A stretch of DNA of 39,330 bases from a virus. The DNA is taken from the UHGV virus genome UHGV-0205814; one strand, 5' to 3'. A program made the position numbers and the translations under genes. The notes beneath the pieces were generated by a model. It was not told where the DNA came from. It did no database searches and was given only the letters and a program-made list of their open reading frames with translations. This document shows, piece by piece, positions 14,889 through 39,280 of the stretch (position 1 is its first letter; each line of letters starts with the position of its first letter).

Positions 14889-16184
14889 TTAAACTCCTAT
14901 TGGCTTCTTAATTTCTCCGCTTTTATATACAGTAGCCTTATATTTTTCTAGTCCATATCTCATAGCGTCAACTGTGTGTGGATCCAGTGTAAATTTATCC
15001 TCTAAGTAATTCCCATTCTTATCTTTTTCGTGGCATAGTTCAGTAAGTTCTCTATATGTATTAATGCACTTATCAGAAACTATAATCTTGTAAAAACTTT
15101 TGAGCTTCTGTAAACCGTCTAATATACTTCCTGCACCTTTTTCACAACTAATTATTTTAAATCCTGCTCTTCTAATTTCTTCTGTTGTTTCTGGTCTTGC
15201 ATTATCTGCAATAATTTCTCTATGATTTAACTTCAAATACTCCATAGATTTTATTAATTCACTTGTGATTAAGTTCTTGTTATATAATTCATCATAGACA
15301 TATAAAACATTATTTTCCCTATCCAGAGCCATTCTAACGAGTGCATTATATGAAATACTAAATCCATAATCTAAGCCATCATATAAATTACCTAATCCGT
15401 ATTTACTTAGTTCTTTTACTATTTCTTGTACTTCTTCATCATTAGATTTTTGAATATTTGTAAATACTCTTTCTCCAACTATTCCAAATCTTCCCTGATA
15501 TGCTATTCTGTATCTTTCAATATCATAAGTCTCAAAATTTTTTAATTGCTGGATATATTCATCAGTAACAAAAGCATTATCCTCAACAACTGAATGATGG
15601 TAGTAAGTATCATCTGTTAATATAATTCTTTTTTGATAAAGTTCTTCTTCATCTATTCCAGCTTTTTTAATAAATCTTTCATAAGTCCAATTATTAATGC
15701 TAACTGGGTTATTAGTTAAGAATATATGTAAGTCTTTACCTAATGCTCTTAATCTTCCATTCAATTCATTAAAAGCGTTGTAACTAATTTCAGGACACTC
15801 TTCAATCCAAATCATATCTACATTATCAATGGACTTTAATTTATCTGCGTCATCAAGTCCCATAAAGATAAATTCGCTCCCATTCCTTCCTCTAATGTGT
15901 AAAGGATTTGTTGTATATGTGAAAAAGCTATTTAAGCTGTAATTACTGATAACTCCTTTTAACAATGAAAAGCAACTTTCTTTTATAGTTCTGTAAACTG
16001 CTCTAACTACTAATATTCTTCTTTTCTCTTGCAATGCCTTTAATACTAGTTTTAAGGCTGTATGGTATGATTTACTGCTTCCATATCCTCCAACGATGTA
16101 ATAAAACCTCTTATCCCAGTTATTTAGATAATCAATAAAATGCTCATTAGCTTGTATATTAATTTTCATTTCTTTTAACTCCAT
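14889..16184 (-). CDS. terL: terminase large subunit (PBSX-type)
   Basis: Walker A-like GGYGSSKS near the N-terminus and ATPase and nuclease domain organisation. 431 aa. Overlaps the small subunit gene. Confidence 0.8.
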   Translation of the reverse strand: MELKEMKINIQANEHFIDYLNNWDKRFYYIVGGYGSSKSYHTALKLVLKALQEKRRILVVRAVYRTIKESCFSLLKGVISNYSLNSFFTYTTNPLHIRGRNGSEFIFMGLDDADKLKSIDNVDMIWIEECPEISYNAFNELNGRLRALGKDLHIFLTNNPVSINNWTYERFIKKAGIDEEELYQKRIILTDDTYYHHSVVEDNAFVTDEYIQQLKNFETYDIERYRIAYQGRFGIVGERVFTNIQKSNDEEVQEIVKELSKYGLGNLYDGLDYGFSISYNALVRMALDRENNVLYVYDELYNKNLITSELIKSMEYLKLNHREIIADNARPETTEEIRRAGFKIISCEKGAGSILDGLQKLKSFYKIIVSDKCINTYRELTELCHEKDKNGNYLEDKFTLDPHTVDAMRYGLEKYKATVYKSGEIKKPIGV

Positions 16185-19870: not shown

Positions 19871-20425
19871 CTATTTATATTTTTTAATAAATCTTTCTGT
19901 TATTACATCTTTATAACATTCTTTAAAATATTTTATTTCTTCCCAATCAAAGTATTCTTTTATGTTTTCATCAGTTAAATCTTCTGTATAACTTTTAAGA
20001 TTTTCACTTGAATATTTCCAACCGCATAACTCATCATTTTTAATTCTATATACAATTTTTTTATTAGATATTCTTTTGATTTCATAATAGTATTTATTAT
20101 AAAAATATTGTTCTAATACTTTTTCTTTATTCCAGCCTTTTAGTAAATACTTAAATCTTAGATATTTAAAATTCTTTTTGCATTTTTTATCTAAATATTC
20201 TAAAAATTCAATAAATATAATACACACAACCCACCAACTCAAAAATATTGCTTTTAATTCTTCATTAATAAAAAATTTATATATATTTTTGATTTTTTTA
20301 TATTTTTTCTTGTATTCAAGATAATATTTTATTTTTATAAATAGCCATATAAAAAAAGTTAAAAGACAACCAATTAAGTAGATGTAACACAGTTTTATTA
20401 AATCTATTGTTATTGTGAATTTCAT
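19871..20425 (-). CDS. K/Y/F-rich membrane protein (2 predicted TM helices)
   Basis: Two N-proximal hydrophobic helices (LCYIYLIGCLLTFFIWLFI, IFLSWWVVCIIFIEFL). Extremely AT-rich codon content compared with its neighbours. Confidence 0.35.
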   Translation of the reverse strand: MKFTITIDLIKLCYIYLIGCLLTFFIWLFIKIKYYLEYKKKYKKIKNIYKFFINEELKAIFLSWWVVCIIFIEFLEYLDKKCKKNFKYLRFKYLLKGWNKEKVLEQYFYNKYYYEIKRISNKKIVYRIKNDELCGWKYSSENLKSYTEDLTDENIKEYFDWEEIKYFKECYKDVITERFIKKYK

Positions 20426-22206: not shown

Positions 22207-22266
22207 TTACATTACCTCCTGTATATTTGGAGAGCCTTGGTAGTTCTCCTTTTATTAATTCAATTA

Positions 22267-22360
22267 GTAGAGCCTATATAGAGCCTACCAAAGCGACATA
22301 TAGACCCCACTAATTCAAGTAATAAATTTACTAGATACTTACTAGAAAGTTACTAGATAT
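22267..22360. repeat. iteron-like tandem direct repeats (2x TAGAGCCTAnn, 3x TTACTAGAnnn) next to an AT-rich stretch; candidate origin
   Basis: TAGAGCCTATA/TAGAGCCTACC at 22267-22288. TACTAGATAC/TTACTAGAAAG/TTACTAGATAT at 22328-22360. Followed by a >100-bp AT-rich stretch with CTTGAAAA repeats (22361-22470). Confidence 0.45.
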
Positions 22361-23003
22361 TTTTTAACTTCTCTTGAAAAAATCTTAATAATTTCATTGA
22401 TATATATAGAAAAAATTAATATTTATCTTGAAAAGCCTTAAAAAAATTTTGAAAGTTTTACATCATACATCTTTACCAGCTACCTAGAATTATCCACAGA
22501 TTAGGTCTTGCCTTTTCTGTGTTAGGTAAAGATGTAAGATGGTCGGTTTTGACATCATAAAACTGCGAACGACAAAATATATAGTTGTAAATTGACGGAC
22601 TTACAACGGTACGGCTAGCTTTAAAATTCAGACGTGGTCCTATAAAATCTACTAGCTTGTTTACACCCTAGAATGTTTTTAAATGCCGTTTTAAGCTCAG
22701 AAAACGGAAGAAAACATATAGATACAATATTTTACGAACTTGTATCGGTACGGCTAGGTCAAAAATATTTAAAAATACGACTAGCATTTTTACTCCAAAA
22801 CTCTATTGTCTTGGCGTTGTAAGATTAGTTCTTACACGCATAGCCACAAGAAAAACATCTTTCAGATTTTGGGAGGAGATAGAAAAACTTATGGCTATGT
22901 GTCTAAGGACTAGCCTTAGATAAATTAAAAAATTTAGACATTAAAGATTAAAGAATAGCCTTTTAATCTTTTTTGTTTTCAATTTTGTACGATTAAATCG
23001 GAA

Positions 23004-23234: not shown

Positions 23235-23290
23235 AAACTCACCTCCCTTTTTATTATATCCGTTTTAACTGGAAATGTCAAATATTTGAT

Positions 23291-23341: not shown

Positions 23342-23827
23342 CTATTTATTTGCATTTTTCATAGCTTCAGCCATTAGCTTAGCTTGGTTTTCTATCTGTT
23401 CTTTTTTATAAACTTCAATTTGCTCTAAAACTTTATTTTTGAAAAATTCGGAATTTGCTATCCCTTTAAAATTAAATATACTAGAAGATGTTGAAATATC
23501 TATATTTCCATACCCTAGTATTCTTCCAAAAATACCTTGACTAACATAAATATCATTAATTTTGTCTAATGGTGCATCTAATGTTTGTTTTTTAAAAAAA
23601 CCACTTTCTCCACTGATTTTTTTATCATACAATATTAAATTTGTACAATAATACTTAATTAATGCTGGTACAGCAATTAATAATCCTATAATCAATGGTA
23701 CAAAACCAGCAGAAGACCCTCCTACTTTGAAAAATATAATTGCTTCTAAAAAAAATATTCCTGCAAAAATTCCTGGAATAATAAAAATTTTCCCACTGAT
23801 TTTTGCTTTCAATAACTCCTTGTTCAT
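23342..23827 (-). CDS. bacterial PH-domain (bPH_2 / YdbS-like) membrane protein
   Basis: Two N-terminal TM helices (IFIIPGIFAGIFFLEAIIFF, FVPLIIGLLIAVPALI) followed by a ~90-aa domain with the membrane-flanked PH architecture. Confidence 0.55.
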   Translation of the reverse strand: MNKELLKAKISGKIFIIPGIFAGIFFLEAIIFFKVGGSSAGFVPLIIGLLIAVPALIKYYCTNLILYDKKISGESGFFKKQTLDAPLDKINDIYVSQGIFGRILGYGNIDISTSSSIFNFKGIANSEFFKNKVLEQIEVYKKEQIENQAKLMAEAMKNANK

Positions 23828-23971: not shown

Positions 23972-24003
23972 GTTAATATAAAAAGCCACTTGTCAGGTGG
24001 CTT
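23972..24003 (-). terminator. Rho-independent terminator ending the three-gene cassette
   Basis: Stem AGCCAC/GTGGCT with loop TTGTCAG, followed on the minus strand by TTTTTATAT. Lies 6 nt downstream of the stop of the 24009-24551 gene. Confidence 0.55.
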
Positions 24004-24008
24004 GGGTA

Positions 24009-24551
24009 CTATTCTTTAAAATGGAAAGTTAAAATATCATAAATTGTTGAAATTATTGTTGCTATTGAAACTAATACTCCTATCCAAAATATAAAAACAT
24101 TAGTATCAAAGAAAAATCTTTTAAATAAAACATAAGTTCTTAAGTCACTAGAAATAAAAATTTGTGAATTAATAATTTTTAAAAAGAATTTGCTTTTTTC
24201 TTTTTCAATATTGATATTATTACTATCATCATTTTTAAAGGCTGTTACACTATATTTAAAATCATTGCTTATAATAGAGTTAGAAAAATAAATAAGCTCC
24301 TTTTTATTTAATTCATATAATAAATAAATTAATGAATATACTTCAGATATATATTTATTTGAAATGGTTCCATTAATTTTTATGGATTTATTAATTAAAA
24401 TGAAAACATTTTCTGTATTAACTTCAAGTCCATATTTATTTTTATGTCTTAAAAAACTTTGTAAAATATCTTTAAATAAATATCCTTGAACATTACTATC
24501 GTACTTACAAATATATACAATAAATCTCTTTTGAAAATTACTATACTTCAT
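24009..24551 (-). CDS. hypothetical protein with C-terminal transmembrane anchor (cassette gene C)
   Basis: 180 aa. Soluble N-terminal ~150 aa, then a single C-terminal hydrophobic helix (VFIFWIGVLVSIATIISTIYDIL). The start overlaps the stop of gene B by 11 nt. Confidence 0.5.
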   Translation of the reverse strand: MKYSNFQKRFIVYICKYDSNVQGYLFKDILQSFLRHKNKYGLEVNTENVFILINKSIKINGTISNKYISEVYSLIYLLYELNKKELIYFSNSIISNDFKYSVTAFKNDDSNNINIEKEKSKFFLKIINSQIFISSDLRTYVLFKRFFFDTNVFIFWIGVLVSIATIISTIYDILTFHFKE

Positions 24552-25362
24552 TTAAATTAACCCCTATAAATTTTTTTATATTATCTGATACTTTGGCATA
24601 TCCATCTTTGTATATTATTTTAACTTTATCTTGTGAGTGTATTTTTAAAAATTTTTCTTTAATATATTTAACAAGGCTAGTTTGTTCTTTATCAATTAGT
24701 ATCAAGGCTTTGATTTTATAGTTTTCTTTAACTTTTTTTTCCAGTTCACTAAATGCTTCATGTAAATCTAATTCTGTATATATTCCAGTAAAAATAATTG
24801 TATTATCATATTCAAAATAATCTATTTTATTATATAATTTATCTTCTAGTTTTACTATTTTCTTTTTACTTAATTTATTAAATTCTTCTACAAAATTATT
24901 AATTGCTACTTTAAACTCTCTTTCTTTTACTTCTTTATCTTTATTGTATATAATAGAATAATCATAAATGTAATTATAGTATTTTGAAATTGCAATTAAA
25001 TATTTTCCAATTTCTTCTTTCAGGTTAGCATTTTTATTTATTTCTTTTTCCATTAAAAGAGAGTGATTTATTTTTTCATTTTCAATATTTTTTATTAATT
25101 TTTCAAATGTTTTCTTATTTAAAAAGTAGTTCTTAATTATATTTTTATCTTTTTGAATATTTTTTATACTTTTTTCAACATATTTATACATATCGTTAGA
25201 AAAAACTATTTTATTTTCATTTTGTTTTATATAAAAATATATGAAATTTCCATCATTTAAAAATTGAGGAGTATAAAAAATAAACTCATCTTTTTTTTCT
25301 TCAGTAAAAAAAAGATTAGAAAATTCATCATTAATAATGTTATCCAATTTTTCTTTAAGCAT
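24541..25362 (-). CDS. hypothetical protein (cassette gene B)
   Basis: 273 aa, K/E/N-rich with no recognised motif. A perfect AGGAGG RBS sits 8-9 nt upstream of the ATG, inside the end of gene A (8-nt overlap). Confidence 0.5.
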   Translation of the reverse strand: MLKEKLDNIINDEFSNLFFTEEKKDEFIFYTPQFLNDGNFIYFYIKQNENKIVFSNDMYKYVEKSIKNIQKDKNIIKNYFLNKKTFEKLIKNIENEKINHSLLMEKEINKNANLKEEIGKYLIAISKYYNYIYDYSIIYNKDKEVKEREFKVAINNFVEEFNKLSKKKIVKLEDKLYNKIDYFEYDNTIIFTGIYTELDLHEAFSELEKKVKENYKIKALILIDKEQTSLVKYIKEKFLKIHSQDKVKIIYKDGYAKVSDNIKKFIGVNLNEV

Positions 25363-25861
25363 TTGTATTACCTCCTATTTTTAAATTTCTATCTTTACTA
25401 TACTTAGTATAATTGAATTTTAATAAAAATTCAATTATTTTTGCTTCATTAATTTGATTTTCTTGAAATATTTCTTCAATTTCATTAGATAAAGAAGTTC
25501 CATATAATTGTTCATCCGTTAAAATATCTTCACTGTTCTTTTGGCTGTTAATCTTATAAACTTTTATTTCCCAATACTTTTTTATATCTTTTTTCTTAAT
25601 AAACCAACCTTCATTTTCAACAATATATTGTATTTCTACTCTAAATTTTTCTTCACTAATGACATCAAAATAAAAAATTTTGAAAGAAACTTTTGTGATA
25701 TTTATATTTTCGTAGTAAGGAAAAATTTCTATTTTGTCTATAATTTCGTTTCCGCATTTAGTTAACGGTGCTTCTAAATAGCTTTCTTTTGCTTTTGGAA
25801 AATTACTATACTTAGGTTTAGATCCAAAAATATATTTCCCATTTTCTTTTTCTAAATCCAT
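25355..25861 (-). CDS. hypothetical protein (cassette gene A)
   Basis: 168 aa with no recognised motif. Very AT-rich. Separated from the upstream ImmA gene by 95 bp. Confidence 0.45.
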   Translation of the reverse strand: MDLEKENGKYIFGSKPKYSNFPKAKESYLEAPLTKCGNEIIDKIEIFPYYENINITKVSFKIFYFDVISEEKFRVEIQYIVENEGWFIKKKDIKKYWEIKVYKINSQKNSEDILTDEQLYGTSLSNEIEEIFQENQINEAKIIEFLLKFNYTKYSKDRNLKIGGNTNA

Positions 25862-25956
25862 TTTTTTAGCTTTTATAATATTTTCACACTTAATTTTAAT
25901 CCCTCCTACCCCAACTTATCAAATTTATCTTTAAACTTATCTAATATAGGCTTTTA

Positions 25957-26379
25957 TTAAAGCATTCCTCTCAATCTTTTTATTTCTTCCAACATCAAAA
26001 AATTAGTTTCTGTTTCTTTAAAATCATATTCCTCAAATACTTCATCATCTGGGATTAGTAAATAACTTGCAAATAAATTTGCTTCATCTTCTAATTTACT
26101 TCTTCTCAGTAAACTTGTGTTATCTATTAAAAACTGATGTTCACTTGATGAATGTAAAATAGCATGTCCTAGTTCGTGGCAACAAACTAACATTTTGTCA
26201 AACTCATTCAATTTTGAATTTATAAATATAAATTTTCTCCTTAAAACTCTTTTAAATAAACCCCTAACCTCTCCTAAATCTTCAATTAATACTTCAATAT
26301 TTAGTTTTTTGGCTAGTTTAAATGGATTTTTAGTTCCATATTTTACAATTAAATCTAAAACTTTTAATCTTATATCCAT
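25957..26379 (-). CDS. immA: ImmA/IrrE-family zinc metallopeptidase (anti-repressor protease)
   Basis: HEXXH motif (CCHELGHAILH) in a ~140-aa protein. Directly downstream of and co-oriented with the XRE repressor. Confidence 0.75.
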   Translation of the reverse strand: MDIRLKVLDLIVKYGTKNPFKLAKKLNIEVLIEDLGEVRGLFKRVLRRKFIFINSKLNEFDKMLVCCHELGHAILHSSSEHQFLIDNTSLLRRSKLEDEANLFASYLLIPDDEVFEEYDFKETETNFLMLEEIKRLRGML

Positions 26380-26391
26380 TTAATCGCCTAC

Positions 26392-26808
26392 CTATTTCTT
26401 TATCTTATTTTTTTCTTTTGCAATAAAAAATGCTGATTGAATAGCCATTAAAACTTTTTCTTTATCTTCCTCTGATATAGTTTCATCATTAAACATTAAT
26501 GCTGACTGTTCTATAATATCATTAAATTGTCTTTTGCCTCTACTGTCTAATTGTCTATATAGTGGATTTTGAAGTATCTTTATACCTATATCTTTTGGTA
26601 CAAAACTTGAAAATAATTCACTTCTTTCATCATCTGTCAACTTTAATGCTTTTGATAATTTTTCCAATGTTTTTATTGTAGATTTACTTTTACCAGTTTC
26701 TATATCTCCGACTGTTCCTTTTCCTACTCCTGCAAGTTCAGCAAGTTGTACTATTGTTAAATTCCTACTTTCTCTTAACTTTTTTAAAACTATTGCAGTT
26801 GTATTCAT
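26392..26808 (-). CDS. XRE-family phage repressor (ImmR/cI-like)
   Basis: N-terminal HTH (LTIVQLAELAGVGKGTVGDIETGKS), no S24 peptidase domain. Divergent from the early operon. Confidence 0.75.
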   Translation of the reverse strand: MNTTAIVLKKLRESRNLTIVQLAELAGVGKGTVGDIETGKSKSTIKTLEKLSKALKLTDDERSELFSSFVPKDIGIKILQNPLYRQLDSRGKRQFNDIIEQSALMFNDETISEEDKEKVLMAIQSAFFIAKEKNKIKK

Positions 26809-26849: not shown

Positions 26850-26975
26850 ATTTCCGATTAAAATAAAAATTTTTTCTTGACTTATCCGATTATTTAGGAT
26901 ATAATAAAGAAAAGATATGATTTAATGTGAATTACAAATTTTTTTAAACAAAGTATCCGTTTAAATCGGAATAAG
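26850..26975. promoter_or_regulatory. divergent immunity-switch promoter/operator region
   Basis: Rightward promoter TTGACT (26877-26882), 17-nt spacer, TATAAT (26900-26905). Three copies of the TCCGATT motif: 26853-26860(+), 26884-26892(+, inside the spacer), 26964-26970(-, within the inverted element ATCCGTTTAAATCGGAAT at 26955-26972). Confidence 0.55.
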
Positions 26976-28064: not shown

Positions 28065-28697
28065 ATGAATATATATGAAAAATTATTAAAAGCACAAGTT
28101 GAATTAAAAGCACCTAAAGGACAATATAACAGTTTTGGAAAATATAAATATAGAAGTTGTGAAGATATATTAGAGGCTTTAAAACCTGTATTAGATAAGT
28201 TTAAATTAACATTATTTATAAGTGATGAAATAGTTGAGGTTGGAGGAAGTTATAAACTAGAAAAAAAAGATGAAACAGTTGAAACTGTTGGCAGAAAATA
28301 TGTAAAAGCTACAATAACTCTTGTAAATATAGAAAAGCCCGATGAAATTATAAAAACATCAGCACTTGCAAGAGAAGAAGAAACAAAAAAGGGAATGGAT
28401 GGCTCACAAATAACAGGAGCAAGTTCATCATATGCAAGAAAATATGCTTTGAATGGTATGTTTATGATAGATGATACAAAAGATAGTGACAGCACTAACA
28501 CACACGGAAAAGAAGAAAAGACAGAAGCAGAAAGAAAAAAAGAAGCAATAGAAGCTATTAACAAACTTGCAGATACAGAAGAAAAAACAGAAAAAGTATT
28601 TGATATGATAGCAAAATTTAATAAAAATAGTTTATTGGATTGCACACCAGAAGAATTAAAAAAAGTATATACAGAAATTAAAAAGAAAGGAATATAG
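28065..28697 (+). CDS. erf: ERF-family single-strand annealing protein (recombinase)
   Basis: N-terminal IYEKLLKAQVELKAPKGQYNSFGKYKYRSCEDILEALKPVL and GASSSYARKYALNGMF resemble the Erf core. K/E-rich C-tail. Directly followed by SSB. Confidence 0.55.
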   Translation: MNIYEKLLKAQVELKAPKGQYNSFGKYKYRSCEDILEALKPVLDKFKLTLFISDEIVEVGGSYKLEKKDETVETVGRKYVKATITLVNIEKPDEIIKTSALAREEETKKGMDGSQITGASSSYARKYALNGMFMIDDTKDSDSTNTHGKEEKTEAERKKEAIEAINKLADTEEKTEKVFDMIAKFNKNSLLDCTPEELKKVYTEIKKKGI

Positions 28698-33526: not shown

Positions 33527-34594
33527 ATGAAGGCTAGTAATGGAATGGGAACAATAGTTAAATTAAGTGGAAAAAGAAGAAAACCTTATGCTTTAAAAGG
33601 ACAAGGTGTATACACTGAAAAAGGTTATTATCAACCATTGATTGAAACGTTTACCACTAAGAAAGAAGCTGAAGCATTTAGAATAGCATATTTTAATAAT
33701 AAGATTTTAGAAGATAAGGCAAAAGGAATAGAGAACGTTAAGGAACAAAAAGCGTTATTATTTGAAGATTTGTATAAAATATGGCTTGAAAATAAAAAGC
33801 CTGCTAAAACTTCATTAAGAAATTACACCTCATATTTTAGTAATAGTAAAAAGCTTCATAAGTTAGATATAAAAAATATAAATGGGATCTTATTACAAAA
33901 GATTTTAAATGAACTTGATTTGAGTAAAGGTACTCTAAGAAATTTAAAATCTTTCTGGAAACAATTATTTGACTTCGCACTATTAAACGATTTTTGCCAA
34001 AAAGAATATGTTAGTTTTTTGAAGCTTCCAGCTGAAGAAAAAGGAAAGAAAACAAGTGATAGAAATAGAATATTTACAGCAGAAGATTTACAAAGACTAT
34101 GGGATAATCTTTATAAAGATATTGATAGATTTAAAATACTAGATATTATATTAGTTGATTGTTATACTGGATTAAGACCTAGCGAACTTTTAAATATAAA
34201 AAATGAAAGAGTTTTTCTTGAAGAAAGATATATTGATATTACAAAATCTAAAAGTAAAGCAGGTATAAGAAAACTTCCTATTTCTGATAAAATATATGAT
34301 ATAATTAAAAAAAGATATGATCCTGATGAAGAATTTTTATTCACTAGATATGATGGAGCTAAATTAACATATGATACTTATGATTATGAGTTTAGAGAAC
34401 TTATGAAAGATTTAGGAATAGATTATCATACAGCTCACGATTGTAGACATACATTTGCAACATTATTATCTAACGCAGAAATAGACAAAGAAATAATTAT
34501 AAAATTAACAGGGCATAGTAGTTATAAAATAACATCTGAAAAATATATTCATAAGACATTAAAAAACTATCGTGATGCAATTAATAAAATATAA
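33527..34594 (+). CDS. int: tyrosine site-specific integrase
   Basis: N-terminal arm-type DNA-binding domain (GTIVKLSGKRRKPYALKG). Catalytic residues R (LRPSEL), HxxR (HDCRHTFAT) and Y (GHSSYKITSEKYIH). Confidence 0.85.
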   Translation: MKASNGMGTIVKLSGKRRKPYALKGQGVYTEKGYYQPLIETFTTKKEAEAFRIAYFNNKILEDKAKGIENVKEQKALLFEDLYKIWLENKKPAKTSLRNYTSYFSNSKKLHKLDIKNINGILLQKILNELDLSKGTLRNLKSFWKQLFDFALLNDFCQKEYVSFLKLPAEEKGKKTSDRNRIFTAEDLQRLWDNLYKDIDRFKILDIILVDCYTGLRPSELLNIKNERVFLEERYIDITKSKSKAGIRKLPISDKIYDIIKKRYDPDEEFLFTRYDGAKLTYDTYDYEFRELMKDLGIDYHTAHDCRHTFATLLSNAEIDKEIIIKLTGHSSYKITSEKYIHKTLKNYRDAINKI

Positions 34595-34913
34595 TTTGTT
34601 ACTTATTCGTTATTTATTAATTATTTTTATATAATTTTATCTACACAATAAGTTTTGAATTTATGCTATATAGAGATGTTAAAAAAGCAATTATGAATTA
34701 TAGTTTAATTTCTACAAAAAAGCCCGAACTTGAAAAAAGTTGAGGGCTTTTTTGTTGATGGAGTATATTTTTGTTATTTATTTGTTATTTATTAAAAATT
34801 ATTATTTTAAAATATTTTTAAATAACTTGTGTTAGATAACAAACTTAGATTATAAATAACAGATGTTAGATAACAATTTTATGATATAATAAAAATAAAA
34901 AAAGGAGTATATT
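34595..34913. other. candidate attP / integrase arm-site region
   Basis: ORF-free, AT-rich. Two copies of the palindromic element TGTTAGATAACA (34828-34839, 34866-34877) plus TTGTTATTTA tandem copies and TGTTA half-sites. Lies between int and the lysis-side genes. Confidence 0.4.
34716..34756 (+). terminator. Rho-independent terminator after int
   Basis: Stem AGCCCgAACTT / AAGTTgaGGGCT with a GAAAA loop, followed by TTTTTTG. An A-tract upstream allows bidirectional function. Confidence 0.55.
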
Positions 34914-35342
34914 ATGATAATAAATAGTAAAGAATATTTTATAGGACATACCTTTCCAGAACAAATTAGAATCGATACACAGTTTAGAATAGAAGAGTTA
35001 AGAGAGTTTTATAATCACAAAGCAGATGCAATTAAAAAATTTTTGAAAGTAAGAAAACTTGAAACAGATGATAGAAACGAAATCAAAATAATAGATGAAA
35101 TTTTTGGTGCTTTGATTTCAATTACTAATTCTAATAATTTTATAAAAGTTGAACATTTACCAGTTTTGAGTGATGGAGAGGATAGAGAAAGAGTGAATAT
35201 AATCATAAATACAGCCAATCAAAAAGCAGAAGAATTAGGCTTAGATTTAAAATATGATATTTTCAGTATTATAAAATCGATAGAAGAACAAATAATAATA
35301 TATTGTCAAAATAATTTCTTAAAACAAACTATACTTAGATAA
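34914..35342 (+). CDS. hypothetical protein
   Basis: 142-aa ORF with RBS AAAGGAG. Convergent with the minus-strand cassette. Confidence 0.3.
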   Translation: MIINSKEYFIGHTFPEQIRIDTQFRIEELREFYNHKADAIKKFLKVRKLETDDRNEIKIIDEIFGALISITNSNNFIKVEHLPVLSDGEDRERVNIIINTANQKAEELGLDLKYDIFSIIKSIEEQIIIYCQNNFLKQTILR

Positions 35343-35385
35343 AAACGAATAAAAGCCCAGCTAATAACTGGACTTTTTTATTACA
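35343..35385. terminator. bidirectional terminator between convergent genes
   Basis: Hairpin AGCCCAG-ctaataa-CTGGACT flanked by an A-tract and a T-tract (TTTTTTATT). Confidence 0.4.
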
Positions 35386-35579
35386 TTTTCTCTTTTCTTT
35401 ATAAAACTTTCAATCTCTTTTAAATCTTCTAAATTAGCATATTTCAAAATGAAATTTTTAGCATTGCTTTTATAATTTGATATTTTTTTCTTTTCTCTTG
35501 CTTCTTTATTATTTTTAAGATAACGATTATTGGCTGCAACTTGCTCCTCAGATTTTTTATATCCTTTTCTTTTTTCCAT
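35361..35579 (-). CDS. small highly basic protein
   Basis: 72 aa, K/R/N-rich (pI clearly basic). Confidence 0.3.
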   Translation of the reverse strand: MEKRKGYKKSEEQVAANNRYLKNNKEAREKKKISNYKSNAKNFILKYANLEDLKEIESFIKKRENVIKKSSY

Positions 35580-35587
35580 ATATACTC

Positions 35588-35956
35588 CTACTTAATACTT
35601 TCAAAATTTTTTTTAAATTCTTCTTCTAAATTAGTTAAAGTATTTATAAATTGACTTAAATTTTTAACATTAATTCTTTTTACTTTTTTTTCACAATTCT
35701 TTTTTTGGATTAAATCAATATAGTTATAATTATCAAGAGTTGAAAATCTAAACTCAGTAAAATCAGTCCAATTTTCGTATAAATAGATATATTCAAAACT
35801 TTTATTTTCAAATTGTGCGAATAAATCTTCTAATTTTGTCCCTTCGTATTCGTTTTTTACAGTTAAATCATTATTAAATACTTTTAAAGTACAATCAGTT
35901 ATTTCAAAATCCAACCCTTCTAATTTTTCAAAAGCTTCTTTAATAGTTAAACTCAT
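35588..35956 (-). CDS. hypothetical protein
   Basis: 122-aa ORF with RBS AGGAGGAA. Confidence 0.3.
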   Translation of the reverse strand: MSLTIKEAFEKLEGLDFEITDCTLKVFNNDLTVKNEYEGTKLEDLFAQFENKSFEYIYLYENWTDFTEFRFSTLDNYNYIDLIQKKNCEKKVKRINVKNLSQFINTLTNLEEEFKKNFESIK

Positions 35957-36001
35957 TTTAATTCCTCCTTTTTTATTTTAAAGCTGAAATATTTCATCCA
36001 G

Positions 36002-36412
36002 CTATTTAGTCCAACCTAGTGCGATTTCAGTATCGTTTTGTTCTTTTGCTATTTCCATTAAACTTTCAAAAGTATCATCTTTTTCAAAATGAAAATCTTC
36101 AAAATCGTTTTTAAAAATATAAGTTTTAAAATATTTTCTATTTAATTTAACTGCGTGAGCATTTAAACCTAAATCATAGTTATGCACTCTAACAATGTTC
36201 CATTCTTTTAAATAAACTACTTTGTTATTTCCAACAACTAAAACGAAATTATCTTTTATAAATTTCACATTACCAGTAACTATTATAATTTCATCTTCAT
36301 TTAAAATGTGATTAAATTTAAAGTATTTGTTAGAAGTTTTTTTAACTTCTCCAAAAAATTTACTTATTTGTTCTTCTTTCATTTCCTTTAAAAATTCACT
36401 ATATTTACTCAT
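36002..36412 (-). CDS. hypothetical protein (first gene of moron cassette)
   Basis: 136-aa ORF with RBS AGGAGGA. Its promoter region contains a perfect palindrome. Confidence 0.3.
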   Translation of the reverse strand: MSKYSEFLKEMKEEQISKFFGEVKKTSNKYFKFNHILNEDEIIIVTGNVKFIKDNFVLVVGNNKVVYLKEWNIVRVHNYDLGLNAHAVKLNRKYFKTYIFKNDFEDFHFEKDDTFESLMEIAKEQNDTEIALGWTK

Positions 36413-36447
36413 TTTAGATCCTCCTAAATTTCTTTTATCTTTATGAT

Positions 36448-36474
36448 ATGATTATATCATAATCATATGATTAT
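36448..36474. promoter_or_regulatory. operator-like palindrome ATGATTAT-atc-ATAATCATATGATTAT
   Basis: Perfect 16-bp palindrome ATAATCATATGATTAT (36459-36474) plus a third half-site (36448-36455). 36-60 nt upstream of the 36412 start codon. Confidence 0.45.
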
Positions 36475-36514
36475 GTAAATGCTTTTTTTTAAATATTTTT
36501 TTAAAATTTTAAAC

Positions 36515-36550
36515 AATAAAAAAATAGGGGCAGGACAAAATCCTACCCCA
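36515..36550 (-). terminator. Rho-independent terminator after the XhlA-like gene
   Basis: On the minus strand: stem GGGGTAGGA/TCCTGCCCC (one mismatch), then TTTTTTTATTG. Confidence 0.45.
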
Positions 36551-36739
36551 TTACTTTATAAATTTTTTAATCTCCTCCATGTCTTTTTTTAATTCTGACT
36601 GCTCTTTCTGTATTGCTTCTAGTAAATCAGCCATTCTCTGCATAGTATTTTTATACATTTCAAAAGTACTTTTATCTTTCCATAAAAAATACAATAAAAT
36701 AGCCCCTACCACACCGTACTCAAGTAAAGTCTTTTCCAT
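36551..36739 (-). CDS. XhlA-like small membrane protein (lysis-associated)
   Basis: 62 aa. N-terminal TM helix (YGVVGAILLYFLW) plus a C-terminal coiled coil. Sits in the lysis cassette. Confidence 0.45.
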   Translation of the reverse strand: MEKTLLEYGVVGAILLYFLWKDKSTFEMYKNTMQRMADLLEAIQKEQSELKKDMEEIKKFIK

Positions 36740-36743
36740 AATA

Positions 36744-37202
36744 TCACCTAATCCCTAACACTTTATACCAATGATTATAATACTCTCTGGCTTCTTTGGT
36801 CCTATCTATAATAGCTCTATCTTTGTATCCTTCATTCTCTAACTTAGGTTTCCAAGATGTTTCACCAAAACATTTAACTGCCATATAAAATTTTCTTCTA
36901 GTTCTATTATCAACACCAGTCTCTTTCATAATAAAATTAAATATTTTATCTGCTAATGTACGATTAATACCTGTATTATTATATGTTGAGTATAAATAAT
37001 CGTGTATAACTGCTGCATTAATATATTTGCCATAAGGATTATACAACCATTGTAAAGATTTAGGTACAGAGGCTCCATCAGTGATAAAACCTCTAAACAC
37101 CTTAATATCATAACCATTGATAGAGTAAATATAATCTTGCATTAAAACTGCTTTCCCATTTGAAATTGGATCAAGGATTAATTTAGTTTTCTCCATCTTC
37201 AT
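36744..37202 (-). CDS. DUF1353-like phage protein
   Basis: Motif FITDGASVPK ... AAVIHDYLY as in DUF1353 family proteins often found in phage lysis regions. Confidence 0.45.
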   Translation of the reverse strand: MKMEKTKLILDPISNGKAVLMQDYIYSINGYDIKVFRGFITDGASVPKSLQWLYNPYGKYINAAVIHDYLYSTYNNTGINRTLADKIFNFIMKETGVDNRTRRKFYMAVKCFGETSWKPKLENEGYKDRAIIDRTKEAREYYNHWYKVLGIR

Positions 37203-37563
37203 TACCTTTTATATCTACCTTATATCCATTAGCAAAAATATCAGAAAACTTTTGTAATGTCTTTTCTATAATATCAATCATTCTTTTTCTGCTAATAAAT
37301 TTAATAATTATAATTCTTGCTATCCAAGGTAAACTAGAAGTTCTATATAATATAAAGTTAACTGCTGCTTCTAGTTTCTTTCTATTTTCTCCGTGATTAA
37401 AACTTTCTTCTGCAAAAATAACTGATTGTCTAAATACATTCACATATTGTTTTCTGTTGTAAATAAGATAAATTAAAATCAGTCCAGCTACTGCTATCCA
37501 TATCCATTGTTCCATACTAAAACTTGCTAAATATCCTACCACTTGATTAATTAAATCTTTCAT
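37183..37563 (-). CDS. putative holin / small membrane protein
   Basis: 126 aa with an N-proximal TM helix (WIWIAVAGLILIYLIY). Lies between the DUF1353-like gene and the amidase. Confidence 0.4.
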   Translation of the reverse strand: MKDLINQVVGYLASFSMEQWIWIAVAGLILIYLIYNRKQYVNVFRQSVIFAEESFNHGENRKKLEAAVNFILYRTSSLPWIARIIIIKFISRKRMIDIIEKTLQKFSDIFANGYKVDIKGNEDGEN

Positions 37564-37575
37564 AATTAAAACCTC

Positions 37576-37842
37576 CTATTCTACATCAAACTTTTTATTT
37601 TCCCATTTTTTATAAGCATCCAAATATAATTCTTTTTTATCACCATTGTAAGTTAATTCATAGTACATTCCGTCTGAAACATTTGTAGATAACAATGCTT
37701 TTGCATTTTGTAGAGTTTTGCAATACCATACAACGAATACATCATCTTTTGTTATTTTTACTCCATCTGTTTTTTCCACTCTTTCATTAAAATACTCAAC
37801 CACTTTTTCCTTACACATATCTTGAAACTTATTAAATTCCAT
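37576..37842 (-). CDS. hypothetical protein
   Basis: 88-aa ORF with RBS AGGAGG immediately downstream of the amidase gene. Confidence 0.3.
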   Translation of the reverse strand: MEFNKFQDMCKEKVVEYFNERVEKTDGVKITKDDVFVVWYCKTLQNAKALLSTNVSDGMYYELTYNGDKKELYLDAYKKWENKKFDVE

Positions 37843-37854
37843 ACTTTTTACCTC

Positions 37855-38400
37855 CTAAATATTTTCTTTTATAAAATTAATAAATAAATTAACAACATCT
37901 TTTTCAACTGAAAACTTTAAACTTTCATCTGGATTACTACCAAAGAAAGGCTCAACTAATATATAAGTATCTTTACTATTACATATTCCATAGCCTCCTC
38001 TAACTTTACTATCTTGAATTTCTATTATTCCGTGATTACCTCTAATTTTGCTACCAAATATATTCTGTAACCTTGCCATAAAATCTGTTGCTAGCTCCTT
38101 AGCCTTATTATTTCCATAGTAAACTAAGCATTCGCAACCATTGGCTTGCTCACTTGCTGCTGCATTAAAGTGAAGTTCCATACAGAACTTATAATCATTC
38201 TTGTTAAGTTCTTCCAGCACTTCAAACATTTCTCTTGTGTAATATTGATTTGGCTTTCTCTCGTATACATCTACCATTAATGGAATTTCAGTTTTTATTT
38301 TTTCTGCTATTCTTTTCCAATAATCATATTCACTACCAACTATGGTTGAATATGCTCCTTTACTTCTTTTATTATGTCCAATAATCAATGCTACTTTCAT
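37855..38400 (-). CDS. N-acetylmuramoyl-L-alanine amidase (Amidase_3-type endolysin catalytic domain)
   Basis: Motifs ALIIGHNKRSKGA, ELHFNAA and LVEPFFGSNPDE match the zinc-amidase family. 181 aa with no separate cell-wall-binding domain. Confidence 0.8.
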   Translation of the reverse strand: MKVALIIGHNKRSKGAYSTIVGSEYDYWKRIAEKIKTEIPLMVDVYERKPNQYYTREMFEVLEELNKNDYKFCMELHFNAAASEQANGCECLVYYGNNKAKELATDFMARLQNIFGSKIRGNHGIIEIQDSKVRGGYGICNSKDTYILVEPFFGSNPDESLKFSVEKDVVNLFINFIKENI

Positions 38401-38515
38401 TTTTATAGTTCTCCTTTCTTAAAAATTATTAATTAGACTTTGTAATTTGCTGTTTTAAGTTATTAATTAGATGAAGCTATATAAAACTACCTCTAATTAA
38501 TTTAAACTCTTTAAA

Positions 38516-39280
38516 TTACATTTTGACCAATTTATTATGTATTTCTTTTCTCTTAGCTTCAAATTCTTCTTTTGTTAATTCTTTTGGTGCTACCTCTGTT
38601 TTAAAATAGTTTTCTGTATCATAAACTGATTGAGTAAAAGTTTTTACAAAACCAGCTAATATTAATGATTTTTGTAAATCTAATTCTAAACCAAAATTAT
38701 CTTCAAAATACCAAGTTATAGGTTTTTCTTTGCCATAAATAGTTTTTTCTGCCAACATAAAAGTTACATTTGAAGCCAATAAAGTTATATCTTTATCACG
38801 ACATCTCTGTCTATGTTGTTCCCCTTCTACTTGATAATCAAATCCATACTCCAATACATCAGCTTTTATATTATCTATTGTGTTAAAGTAGTCTTTTTGT
38901 TCTCTCTCTGTATCATATGCCCACTGTTCTTTTTCCTTGTTCCAAGTTAAATATTTTTCATTTTTTTTAGGCTTTTCTATCTTAACAATCTTTTTATCTC
39001 TTATAACCTCTCCATCTTCAAGTTGTACTTCTATATTATTTTCAACTTTCTCTTCTCTTGTCATTTCTCTAATTGTGTTACCAATTAAAATTGGATAATT
39101 AAATGGTGCATTTCTTTCAACCATTATTGTTTCATCTTTTTTTATATCAGGATAATATGAAAAAATAATATCCCAACCACCATATAATTTGACTTCTTCT
39201 GATGTTAGATTTACATCAAATAATAATTTTGGTAATTTTTCTTTTGAATATATATAATACATAATTTGTTCTCCTTTCAA
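38516..39280 (-). CDS. hypothetical protein (tail-fibre-associated position)
   Basis: 254-aa ORF between the endolysin and the tail fibre region (if the sequence is circular). No motif recognised. Confidence 0.3.
   Translation of the reverse strand: MKGEQIMYYIYSKEKLPKLLFDVNLTSEEVKLYGGWDIIFSYYPDIKKDETIMVERNAPFNYPILIGNTIREMTREEKVENNIEVQLEDGEVIRDKKIVKIEKPKKNEKYLTWNKEKEQWAYDTEREQKDYFNTIDNIKADVLEYGFDYQVEGEQHRQRCRDKDITLLASNVTFMLAEKTIYGKEKPITWYFEDNFGLELDLQKSLILAGFVKTFTQSVYDTENYFKTEVAPKELTKEEFEAKRKEIHNKLVKM

What the first reader, a model, noticed from the sequence alone, without database searches (positions are those of the whole stretch)
24009..25861. Three-gene translationally coupled cassette in the rexAB-like slot of the repressor operon: candidate novel superinfection-exclusion / abortive-infection system
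Genes A (168 aa), B (273 aa) and C (180 aa, single C-terminal TM anchor) lie directly downstream of the ImmR-ImmA pair on the same strand. Lambda places rexA-rexB after cI in the same way. Their starts and stops overlap by 8 and 11 nt. A perfect AGGAGG RBS for B is embedded in the end of A. A dedicated terminator (23972-24003) closes the unit. The cassette is markedly more AT-rich than its neighbours, suggesting horizontal acquisition. None of the three proteins carries a motif I recognise. The architecture (two soluble proteins plus a tail-anchored membrane protein, expressed with the lysogeny repressor) is typical of prophage-encoded defence systems with a membrane-disrupting effector.
Basis: partly seen in the sequence, partly recalled or inferred. 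Interest (0 to 1): 0.8.

Follow-up and report, generated by a model that had tools for sequence, protein, structure and literature searches.

The report
Conserved three-gene cassette behind phage repressor
A Fusobacterium temperate phage carries, right behind its repressor genes, a conserved set of three genes with no known relatives; its position, mobility and neighbours point to an undescribed membrane-associated system that protects the lysogen from other phages, but this has not been tested.

Summary
A (168 aa), B (273 aa) and C (180 aa) are real, tightly coupled genes on the minus strand. They lie behind an XRE repressor and an M78 peptidase, end at a hairpin terminator, and form the most AT-rich 1.85 kb of the window.

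The trio is a conserved module. In about 16 distinct loci from Fusobacteriaceae and other low-GC metagenomic contigs, A-, B- and C-like genes lie adjacent in the same order, down to about 20% identity. Two further loci keep only A and B.

The module usually follows a phage repressor directly, and the repressor is of three different types. It also occurs beside an integrase, and once beside Septu-like genes and a Type ISP/IIG restriction enzyme.

None of the three proteins matches Pfam, NCBIfam, PHROG, PADLOC or PDB sequences.

The model of B shows an N-terminal domain like type III secretion/YbjN chaperones and an alpha/beta C-terminal domain, resembling a DUF1828 viral protein overall. C is modelled, at low confidence, as a cytoplasmic winged helix with a conserved C-terminal membrane anchor. 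A was not modelled.

The best reading is a lysogen-expressed phage-exclusion module in a lambda rexAB-like slot that is not homologous to RexAB. This rests on context only. C looks like an anchor rather than a pore.

The parts
26392..26808 (-). XRE-family (ImmR-like) repressor, 138 aa; first gene of the lysogeny operon
   Evidence: PF01381 HTH_3 E 4.4e-14. PHROG transcriptional repressor/regulator families. Diverges from the plus-strand early operon.
25957..26379 (-). ImmA/IrrE-type M78 metallopeptidase, 140 aa (HELGH)
   Evidence: PF06114 E 2.3e-20. phrog_87 metallo-protease E 1e-21. PADLOC capP E 3.8e-15 and RmrA models.
25862..25908 (-). Conserved leader, or N-terminal extension of A: GGAGGG followed by an in-frame IKIKCENIIKAKK stretch with no canonical start codon in this window
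   Evidence: Sequence read. Near-identity with L016 and L009 across this stretch. The variants P0066, P0015 and P0018 translate it from a canonical start.
25355..25861 (-). Gene A, 168 aa from the ATG; soluble; no known family; fold not modelled
   Evidence: ORF. 7 close homologues. A-like genes lie upstream of B in every locus whose flank is available. No Pfam, PADLOC, PHROG, NCBIfam or PDB match.
24541..25362 (-). Gene B, 273 aa; soluble. N-terminal domain (about residues 1-110, nt 25033-25362) like type III secretion/YbjN chaperones, then a long helix at residues 114-164, then an alpha/beta C-terminal domain (about residues 165-266, nt 24565-24870)
24009..24551 (-). Gene C, 180 aa. Cytoplasmic N-terminal winged-helix-like domain (about residues 1-90, nt 24282-24551), a small alpha/beta middle part, and a C-terminal transmembrane anchor
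24015..24104 (-). Segment of C that encodes the single C-terminal transmembrane helix (residues about 150-179)
   Evidence: KD19 maximum 2.45 at residues 152-170. A matching hydrophobic segment (KD19 1.5-2.5) is present in every complete C-like protein examined. Modelled as helix 150-179.
23975..24003 (-). Intrinsic terminator that closes the repressor-peptidase-A-B-C unit
   Evidence: Stem of 7 bp, loop of 7, T-run. dG -8.7, 5 nt after the stop of C. Equivalent hairpins follow C directly in L016, L006, L012 and L014.
26877..26905 (+). Promoter-like site of the divergent early operon (TTGACT-17-TATAAT), with the operator-like site TATCCGATTATTTAGGA (26883-26899) in its spacer
   Evidence: (inverted repeat I4).
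26954..26970 (.). Second operator-like palindrome, TATCCGTTTAAATCGGA
   Evidence: TATCCG occurs 4 times in 39 kb, and 3 of these lie in the two promoter regions.
23253..23281 (-). Perfect sigma-70-type promoter-like site (TTGACA-17-TATAAT) for the downstream HTH/replication/structural operon, with the operator-like site TATCCGTTTTAACTGGA (23257-23273) in its spacer
23342..23827 (-). Neighbouring, independent accessory gene (bPH_2 membrane protein, own promoter and terminator); not part of the trio
   Evidence: PF03703 E 3e-11. 76% identical to the gene that directly follows the repressor of phage Funu2, which lacks A-B-C.

Best explanation
A-B-C is an autonomous, horizontally mobile three-gene accessory module.

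Expression (inferred). In this phage the module sits in the immunity region and is most likely read through from the repressor promoter during lysogeny. The intergenic gap before A is 95 nt with no terminator. The genes are translationally coupled and a terminator follows C. A weaker promoter-like site in the gap before A could add independent expression.

Function (inferred from context). The most likely function is exclusion of superinfecting phages by the lysogen, either as abortive infection or as a block at or near the membrane.

Proposed working model (inferred from predicted folds):
- C is inserted by its C-terminal helix, with its winged-helix domain in the cytoplasm. It tethers the system to the inner face of the membrane. 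In some relatives it also reaches the cell wall through an extracellular SH3 domain.
- B is the adaptor or sensor. Its chaperone-like N-terminal domain binds an extended peptide, either of a phage protein or of A or C. Its alpha/beta C-terminal domain carries conserved S/T192-G193, D/E206 and D/E224 and supplies the output or nucleic-acid contact.
- A is an obligatory third subunit, made from weak start codons and so probably in small amounts.

What is shown: gene structure, coupling, conserved synteny, the conserved membrane anchor, the position between two repressor-controlled promoter-like sites, and mobility between repressor types. What is inferred: co-transcription with the repressor, complex formation, the trigger and the effector step.
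For: Module integrity. HMMs of A, B and C hit adjacent, same-order ORFs in all 15 loci first collected. The same holds in L017, L019, L021, L022, L024 and L025; in L026 only an A-like gene could be checked, because the contig ends. This extends down to about 20% identity for B. Genes are packed with overlaps or gaps of 23 nt or less.

Slot. The trio directly follows XRE+M78 in the window, L013, L016, L009/10 and L017. It follows a LexA-like HTH-S24 repressor in L003-5, L006-8, L012 and L015, and a third type of HTH protein in L014. No terminator lies between the repressor or peptidase gene and A in 8 of 9 loci, and a hairpin follows C directly in 5 loci. The same operator-like sites occur at both flanking promoter-like sites.

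Autonomy. The trio also occurs beside a tyrosine integrase, with a 660-nt upstream gap (L025), and at a contig end next to host-like genes in Propionigenium maris (L011).

Defence neighbours:
- L022: PtuA-like ATPase (E 2e-107) with an HNH partner, and a Type ISP/IIG restriction enzyme.
- L003: NsnB/AriA/AbiLi-like ATPase 14 nt after C.
- L023: Abi_alpha/PDC-S47 fragment.
- L006: two ParE toxin-antitoxin pairs. L017: MazEF.

Acquisition. The cassette is the lowest-GC stretch of the window. Funu2 has the same bPH_2 gene directly behind a different repressor, without A-B-C.

Precedents. Membrane-anchored nucleic-acid-binding Abi proteins exist: AbiP and PdpSau (PMC13064643, PMC10127798). T3SS/YbjN-type chaperone domains have been predicted in antiviral conflict systems (PMC9503650).
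Against: - There is no phenotype and no transcript data.
- Guilt by association rests on about five loci, without a statistical enrichment test. Toxin-antitoxin and defence genes are common cargo in any prophage accessory slot.
- No protein hits any PADLOC model, apart from one weak RmrT hit for one B homologue (E 8e-5).
- B has no conserved PD-(D/E)xK or other catalytic signature. C has one helix and no obvious pore-forming feature. No effector activity can be named.
- The model of C is of low confidence: pLDDT 69.7, and 4 of 5 models were below 50. A was not modelled.
- Two loci (L018, L023) have A and B without C.
- The near-constant position right after the repressor could instead point to a role in lysogeny control.
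Confidence: 0.45

Rival explanations
1. The cassette is a prophage addiction or toxin-antitoxin-like module. C, or B, is toxic when it is free, and the other subunits hold it inactive, for example through the chaperone-like domain of B. The module would stabilise the prophage rather than primarily exclude phages. This rival overlaps with abortive infection, because many such modules do both.
For: - Tight translational coupling fixes stoichiometry.
- B has a chaperone-like peptide-binding fold.
- The cassette is found next to other toxin-antitoxin pairs, ParE and MazEF.
- One B homologue weakly hits RmrT, and the XRE and M78 proteins hit RmrA models.
- A uses weak start codons.
Against: - There is no similarity to any toxin or antitoxin family.
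- Three genes rather than two are conserved over large distances.
- The trio follows repressors of unrelated types, so the M78 link is not specific.
Confidence: 0.15
2. The cassette is an accessory of the lysogeny switch. The trio would modulate repressor activity, induction or the commitment to lysis. Lambda RexA also biases the bistable switch, and 434 Hex protects the repressor. C, a membrane-tethered winged-helix protein, would sequester or release a regulator or DNA.
For: - The trio is the first gene set after the repressor in most loci, whatever the repressor type.
- C has a predicted DNA-binding-type fold.
- There is precedent for switch functions of genes in this slot (PMC11077077, PMC3564112).
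Against: - The trio also occurs away from any repressor, beside an integrase with its own upstream region (L025).
- It occurs in a defence-gene neighbourhood (L022) and next to host-like genes (L011).
- Close phage relatives (Funu2, FNU4) lack it entirely, so it is dispensable for the switch.
- One mechanism would have to serve S24 self-cleaving, M78-cleaved and other repressors.
Confidence: 0.15
3. The cassette carries out another lysogenic-conversion function at the cell envelope that is unrelated to phage exclusion. Examples are modification or sensing of the cell surface, or a fitness or virulence factor of the Fusobacterium lysogen.
For: - C has a membrane anchor, and some relatives carry an extracellular SH3_3 cell-wall-binding domain.
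- The slot also holds non-defence accessory genes such as the bPH_2 membrane protein.
Against: - Most of the mass of all three proteins is cytoplasmic.
- The window version of C has only about 10 residues outside the membrane.
- No enzyme, adhesin or transporter signature was found.
Confidence: 0.1

Closest known systems
Lambda RexA-RexB exclusion system
   Same: The genes lie directly downstream of the repressor on the same strand. They are closed by a terminator and lie between the two lytic promoter-like sites that carry the shared operator-like sequences. The products are soluble protein(s) plus a membrane protein. B (273 aa) is about the size of RexA (my recollection, not checked here).
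AbiP (Lactococcus) and PdpSau (S. aureus prophage): membrane-anchored nucleic-acid-binding abortive-infection proteins
   Same: Each has a single transmembrane anchor and a cytoplasmic domain of a nucleic-acid-binding type. PdpSau is prophage-encoded accessory cargo (PMC13064643, PMC10127798).
   Different: These are single-gene systems with an N-terminal anchor and an OB-like domain. C is tail-anchored, has a predicted winged helix and needs two conserved partners. There is no homology, and nucleic-acid binding by C is untested.
RosmerTA (RmrT/RmrA) and CapH/CapP-controlled defence operons
   Same: An HTH protein plus an M78 peptidase lies next to uncharacterised effector genes. The window's XRE and M78 proteins hit RmrA, capH and capP models. 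One B homologue weakly hits RmrT (E 8e-5).
   Different: Here HTH and M78 are separate genes, and they look like the phage's own repressor pair, because the shared operator-like sites lie at the lytic promoter-like sites. The same trio follows LexA-like S24 repressors in other phages. The window's own B does not hit RmrT.
DUF1828-containing proteins of phages and low-GC bacteria (function unknown)
   Same: A BFVD DUF1828 protein of 255 aa aligns to the model of B over the whole length (Foldseek E 1.1e-7, probability 1.0).
   Different: None of the 34 B-family members scanned matches a Pfam DUF1828 model. DUF1828 itself has no known function; the two papers that mention it were not read.
Type III secretion class I chaperones and the YbjN family ('TY-chaperones')
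   Different: There is no sequence-family membership. The organisms have no T3SS context. In B the domain is fused to a long helix and an alpha/beta domain.

Membership tests
Lambda RexAB | Located downstream of the repressor on the same strand, inside the immunity region flanked by the repressor-controlled lytic promoters | tested here: met
   promoter-like sites at 26877-26905 (plus strand) and 23281-23253 (minus strand) share TATCCG-N7-GGA sites. The cassette lies between them, behind the repressor.
Lambda RexAB | A RexA homologue (RdgC-like two-domain fold) | tested here: not met
Lambda RexAB | A RexB-type polytopic membrane protein | tested here: not met
   C has a single C-terminal hydrophobic segment in every complete C-like protein examined. 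No RexB family in the Pfam scans.
Lambda RexAB | Exclusion of superinfecting phage with loss of membrane potential | not testable with these tools
   Needs plaque assays and membrane-potential assays.
RosmerTA | RmrA antitoxin: HTH and M78 peptidase in one protein | tested here: not met
   There are two separate genes (138 and 140 aa). Each hits the matching half of RmrA models.
RosmerTA | RmrT toxin homologue next to RmrA | tested here: inconclusive
   The window's A, B and C give no hit. The B homologue of L011 hits PDLC03932 RmrT at E 8e-5 over about 50 residues.
CapH/CapP-regulated defence operon | An HTH repressor plus an M78 protease pair adjacent to the controlled operon | tested here: met
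   capP E 3.8e-15 and capH E 3.2e-8. The pair lies directly upstream of A-B-C.
CapH/CapP-regulated defence operon | The pair is dedicated to the defence operon, binding that operon's promoter | tested here: inconclusive
   The operator-like sites lie at the two phage lytic promoter-like sites, not before A. The trio follows other repressor types elsewhere. DNA binding was not tested.
Known defence systems (PADLOC-DB v2.0.0) | A significant match of any component to a system model | tested here: not met
   No hit for A, B or C of the window, L003, L011, L014 or L022, except the weak RmrT hit.
DUF1828 (Pfam) | A match to the Pfam model | tested here: not met
   none of 34 B-family members matches.
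DUF1828 (Pfam) | The same overall fold | tested here: met
   Foldseek against BFVD: A0A8S5NHZ2 (DUF1828 protein), E 1.1e-7, probability 1.0, 297 aligned columns. This compares one model with another, so it is provisional.
T3SS class I chaperone / YbjN fold | The alpha-beta-beta-beta-alpha-beta-beta-alpha chaperone fold | tested here: met
PD-(D/E)xK nucleases | The restriction-endonuclease-like core fold | tested here: inconclusive
PD-(D/E)xK nucleases | A conserved D...(D/E)xK catalytic motif | tested here: not met
   Across 34 family members only S/T192-G193, D/E206 (94%) and D/E224 (71%) are conserved in the C-terminal domain. There is no conserved lysine in register.
AbiP/PdpSau-type Abi | A membrane anchor plus a nucleic-acid-binding domain, both required | tested here: inconclusive
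   The anchor is conserved. The winged helix is predicted only, from a low-confidence model. Binding and requirement cannot be tested here. No sequence similarity was found.

The most novel reading that the evidence does not exclude
A-B-C is a previously undescribed three-component anti-phage system that works at the membrane. C, a tail-anchored winged-helix protein, spans the membrane. In some relatives it carries an extracellular SH3 cell-wall-binding domain. C would couple events at the envelope or at the DNA entry site to a cytoplasmic complex of A and B. B has a chaperone-like domain and an alpha/beta domain. The logic is unlike RexAB or any catalogued system.
Probability: 0.3. Interest if true: 0.75.

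Novelty: new variant of a known kind. Interest (0 to 1): 0.55.

Why it matters
If the cassette is a defence system, it adds a new protein family set to the catalogue. The set comprises a tail-anchored winged-helix protein, a chaperone-like/DUF1828-like protein and a third unknown protein.

It would also give a first functional handle on the DUF1828-like fold.

It would show that the 'rex slot' logic of lambda is reused in Fusobacterium phages with unrelated parts. By that logic, exclusion genes ride on the repressor transcript.

There is a practical side. Such cassettes in F. nucleatum prophages would limit the host range of therapeutic phages aimed at this tumour-associated oral and gut bacterium.

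The family is small, however: 37 clusters at 50% identity among 1.84 billion representatives. It appears confined to low-GC anaerobes, so its general reach is modest.

Tried and rejected
- Family searches. A, B and C of the window and their divergent relatives were scanned against Pfam, PHROG, PADLOC and NCBIfam. Only sub-threshold noise came back, for example ABC1, AAA_17, Hermes DBD and DUF4833.
- PDB sequence searches with single-family and broad profiles found nothing below E 0.1.
- Profile-profile comparison of A against B and of C against B showed no relationship, so the genes are not duplicates of each other.
- tblastn of B against 50,697 phage records found no match.
- The AFDB Foldseek library was unavailable.
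- The metagenome and viral pattern scans added only 3 loci. The broad alignment was too divergent for the pattern search.
- Toprim, TIR and receiver-domain readings of the C-terminal domain of B were considered from the strand-helix pattern. I dropped them because the corresponding catalytic residues are absent (judged by eye).
- A ToxR-like sensor reading of C was dropped, because the window protein has only about 10 residues outside the membrane.
- bPH_2 as a fourth component was rejected. It has its own promoter and terminator, and in Funu2 it follows a repressor without A-B-C.
- Rfam found nothing at gathering thresholds.
- Literature searches on Fusobacterium prophage defence and on DUF1828 found no paper that describes this cassette.
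Full report
**1. The observation**

- The stop of A and the start of B overlap by 8 nt. B and C overlap by 11 nt.
- AGGAGG lies 8 nt before the ATG of B.
- A hairpin followed by a T-run lies 5 nt after the stop of C, at 24003-23983 and onward. The region holds 5 terminator-like sites against 0.9 expected.
- Upstream on the same strand are an XRE HTH protein (26392-26808, PF01381 E 4e-14) and an M78/IrrE peptidase (25957-26379, PF06114 E 2e-20).
- The cassette has 19.2% GC against 27.1% for the window and is its lowest-GC 1.85-kb stretch. B and C have a z-score of about -2.5 among the window's genes.
- A and B have no hydrophobic segment. C has one, 10 residues from its end.

One correction concerns the start of A. 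The ATG at 25861 has no Shine-Dalgarno sequence. About 40 nt upstream lies GGAGGG, followed by an in-frame stretch. That stretch is almost identical at the DNA level in L016 and L009, although the A proteins there are only about 55% identical to the window's. The variants P0066, P0015 and P0018 translate it from a canonical start. In the window the matching codon is GTT. A either starts at an ATT (about 25894-25900) or is a shortened form. Several A genes elsewhere start with GTG or TTG. A therefore seems to be built for weak translation.

**2. Setting**

The window is a temperate Fusobacterium phage related to Funu2 and FNU4. It is probably a complete, circularly permuted genome:

- integrase at 33527-34594;
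- Erf at 28065 in the plus-strand early operon;
- replication, terminase (14889-16184) and tail genes on the minus strand.

The minus-strand block runs repressor, peptidase, A, B, C, then bPH_2. It lies between two strong promoter-like sites: plus strand 26877-26905 (11 of 12 consensus positions) and minus strand 23281-23253 (12 of 12). Both carry TATCCG-N7-GGA sites in the spacer, and a third site lies at 26954. TATCCG occurs only 4 times in 39 kb. This is the layout of the lambda immunity region, with PL and PR on either side of cI-rexA-rexB. The 'rex slot' comparison is therefore apt at the level of architecture.

Funu2 has the same bPH_2 gene (76% identical protein) directly behind a different, LexA-like repressor, and it has no A-B-C. 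DNA similarity between the two phages stops just after the bPH_2 promoter. The repressor pair plus A-B-C therefore behaves as one exchangeable immunity module, and bPH_2 is not part of the trio.

**3. The trio is a conserved module**

Close homologues are few: 12, 7 and 8 clusters for B, A and C. All are named 'hypothetical protein'. A profile search of 1.84 billion representatives found 37 B-family clusters, almost all of 260-300 aa. None has a Pfam domain.

I collected 26 loci in all; two of them are the phages Funu2 and FNU4, which lack the trio. Local HMMs of A, B and C hit adjacent ORFs in the same order in all 15 loci of the first set. After one iteration they also hit the flanks of distant B homologues in L017, L019, L021, L022, L024, L025 and L026.

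- A-like genes precede B in every locus where the flank exists.
- C-like genes, each with a hydrophobic segment at about residues 150-190, follow B wherever that flank is available, with two exceptions. In L018 a small two-helix membrane protein follows B. In L023 a serine recombinase follows directly.
- Gene spacing is always tight.

**4. Where the trio sits**

- Directly behind XRE+M78: window, L013, L016, L009/10, L017.
- Behind LexA-like HTH-S24 repressors: L003-5, L006-8, L012, L015.
- Behind a third kind of HTH protein: L014.
- In 8 of 9 loci there is no terminator between the repressor module and A. In 5 loci a hairpin follows C directly.
- The trio is also found beside a tyrosine integrase with a 660-nt upstream gap (L025).
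- It is found at a contig end next to host-like genes in Propionigenium maris (L011).
- In L022 it lies beside a PtuA-like ATPase (E 2e-107) with an HNH partner, and a Type ISP/IIG restriction enzyme.
- Other neighbours are an NsnB/AriA/AbiLi-like ATPase 14 nt after C (L003), an Abi_alpha/PDC-S47 fragment (L023), two ParE pairs (L006) and MazEF (L017).

The trio is thus mobile cargo that prefers the repressor transcript but does not depend on one repressor type. It keeps company with defence and toxin-antitoxin genes.

**5. What the proteins look like**

No significant hit was found in Pfam, PHROG, PADLOC, NCBIfam or PDB sequences for any version. A, B and C are unrelated to each other.

B (model pLDDT 80.9):
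- A 50-residue helix follows. It carries the family's most conserved motif, Y121...YYN-IY.
- Across 34 family members the conserved polar residues of this domain are S/T192-G193, D/E206 and D/E224. There is no PD-(D/E)xK motif.
- Against viral models, the best non-family hit is a DUF1828 protein aligned over its whole length (E 1e-7). DUF1828 has no known function.

C (model pLDDT 69.7; only one of five models was usable):
- A small middle domain and the terminal helix follow.
- In L021 and L022 the C protein continues after the helix into an SH3_3 domain (E 4e-11 and 1e-3). This sets the topology as N-terminus inside and C-terminus outside.

**6. Interpretation**

What is shown:
- a real, coupled gene unit;
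- a conserved three-gene module;
- a conserved membrane anchor in C;
- a position inside the immunity region;
- exchange between repressor types and other accessory positions.

What is inferred: expression in the lysogen, and the function. I favour a phage-exclusion or abortive-infection module (confidence 0.45), for four reasons.
- The slot and the neighbours are those of such systems.
- Close relatives of the phage do without the cassette.
- It moves as cargo.
- Membrane-anchored nucleic-acid-binding Abi proteins (AbiP, PdpSau; PMC13064643, PMC10127798) and chaperone-like domains in predicted antiviral systems (PMC9503650) are precedents.

In the working model, C tethers the system to the membrane, B is the adaptor or sensor, and A is a low-abundance third subunit. 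The effector step is unknown. I found no support for C as a membrane-disrupting pore.

Three rivals remain:
- an addiction or toxin-antitoxin-like module (0.15);
- a lysogeny-switch accessory (0.15), which is weakened by the loci without a repressor and by the absence of the trio from sister phages;
- an unrelated envelope function (0.10).

**7. Comparison and novelty**

The cassette works in the same genomic logic as lambda rexAB but fails every homology criterion for RexA and RexB (PMC11077077).

It resembles RosmerTA and CapH/CapP operons only through the HTH plus M78 pair. That pair appears to be the phage's own repressor system, and in other loci it is replaced by S24 repressors.

I rate the cassette a new variant of a known kind: a repressor-linked prophage accessory or exclusion cassette built from protein families with no described member.

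Interest is moderate (0.55). The conservation and the odd domain set are solid. The family is small, confined to low-GC anaerobes, and has no phenotype yet.

Noticed in passing
window 22207-23003: About 800 nt with no ORF of 50 aa or more lie between the replication genes and the 76-aa HTH gene. This stretch has the highest local GC (0.33) and a reversed GC skew. It is conserved with an unannotated gap in phage Funu2. Rfam finds nothing at gathering score. A sub-threshold FuFi-1 (RF02986) match lies at 22836-22975 on the plus strand (21.8 bits against a gathering score of 59.6). This could be a non-coding RNA or an origin of replication.
   Followed up: partly
window 23257-23273, 26883-26899, 26954-26970: Three operator-like sites, TATCCG-N7-GGA, lie in or next to the two strong promoter-like sites that flank the immunity block. 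They are probably the binding sites of the XRE repressor. TATCCG occurs only 4 times in the window.
   Followed up: partly
window 25862-25908: The leader upstream of gene A is more conserved at the DNA level than the gene itself. It holds GGAGGG and an in-frame peptide, IKIKCENIIKAKK, that variants translate from a canonical start. In this window there is no ATG, GTG or TTG, so A may use an ATT start or may be N-terminally shortened. A genes in other loci start with GTG or TTG.
   Followed up: partly
L021 2373-3209 and L022 1661-2464: Distant C-family proteins carry an extracellular bacterial SH3_3 domain after the transmembrane helix. In those variants the protein bridges the cytoplasm and the cell wall.
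   Followed up: partly
L003 7481-9913: In one prophage the trio is followed, 14 nt after C, by a 496-aa ABC-type ATPase (NsnB/AriA/AbiLi-like, E 2.5e-48) and a 313-aa protein with no family. This looks like a second defence system on the same transcript.
   Followed up: partly
L016 3505-4650: In a close relative, the bPH_2 position after the trio is taken by a 381-aa protein that looks polytopic by sequence and has no PADLOC match. This shows that the position after C is a second variable cargo site.
   Followed up: no
window 33527-35342 and 35361-39280: The integrase is followed by a 142-aa ORF with no family. Minus-strand genes follow, including a tail assembly chaperone. The window therefore seems to be a circularly permuted whole phage genome, with attP near 34600-35360.
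   Followed up: partly
window 19871-20425: A 184-aa gene among the replication genes is as AT-rich as B and C (18.0% GC, z -2.5) and has no PHROG match. It may be another recently acquired gene.
   Followed up: no
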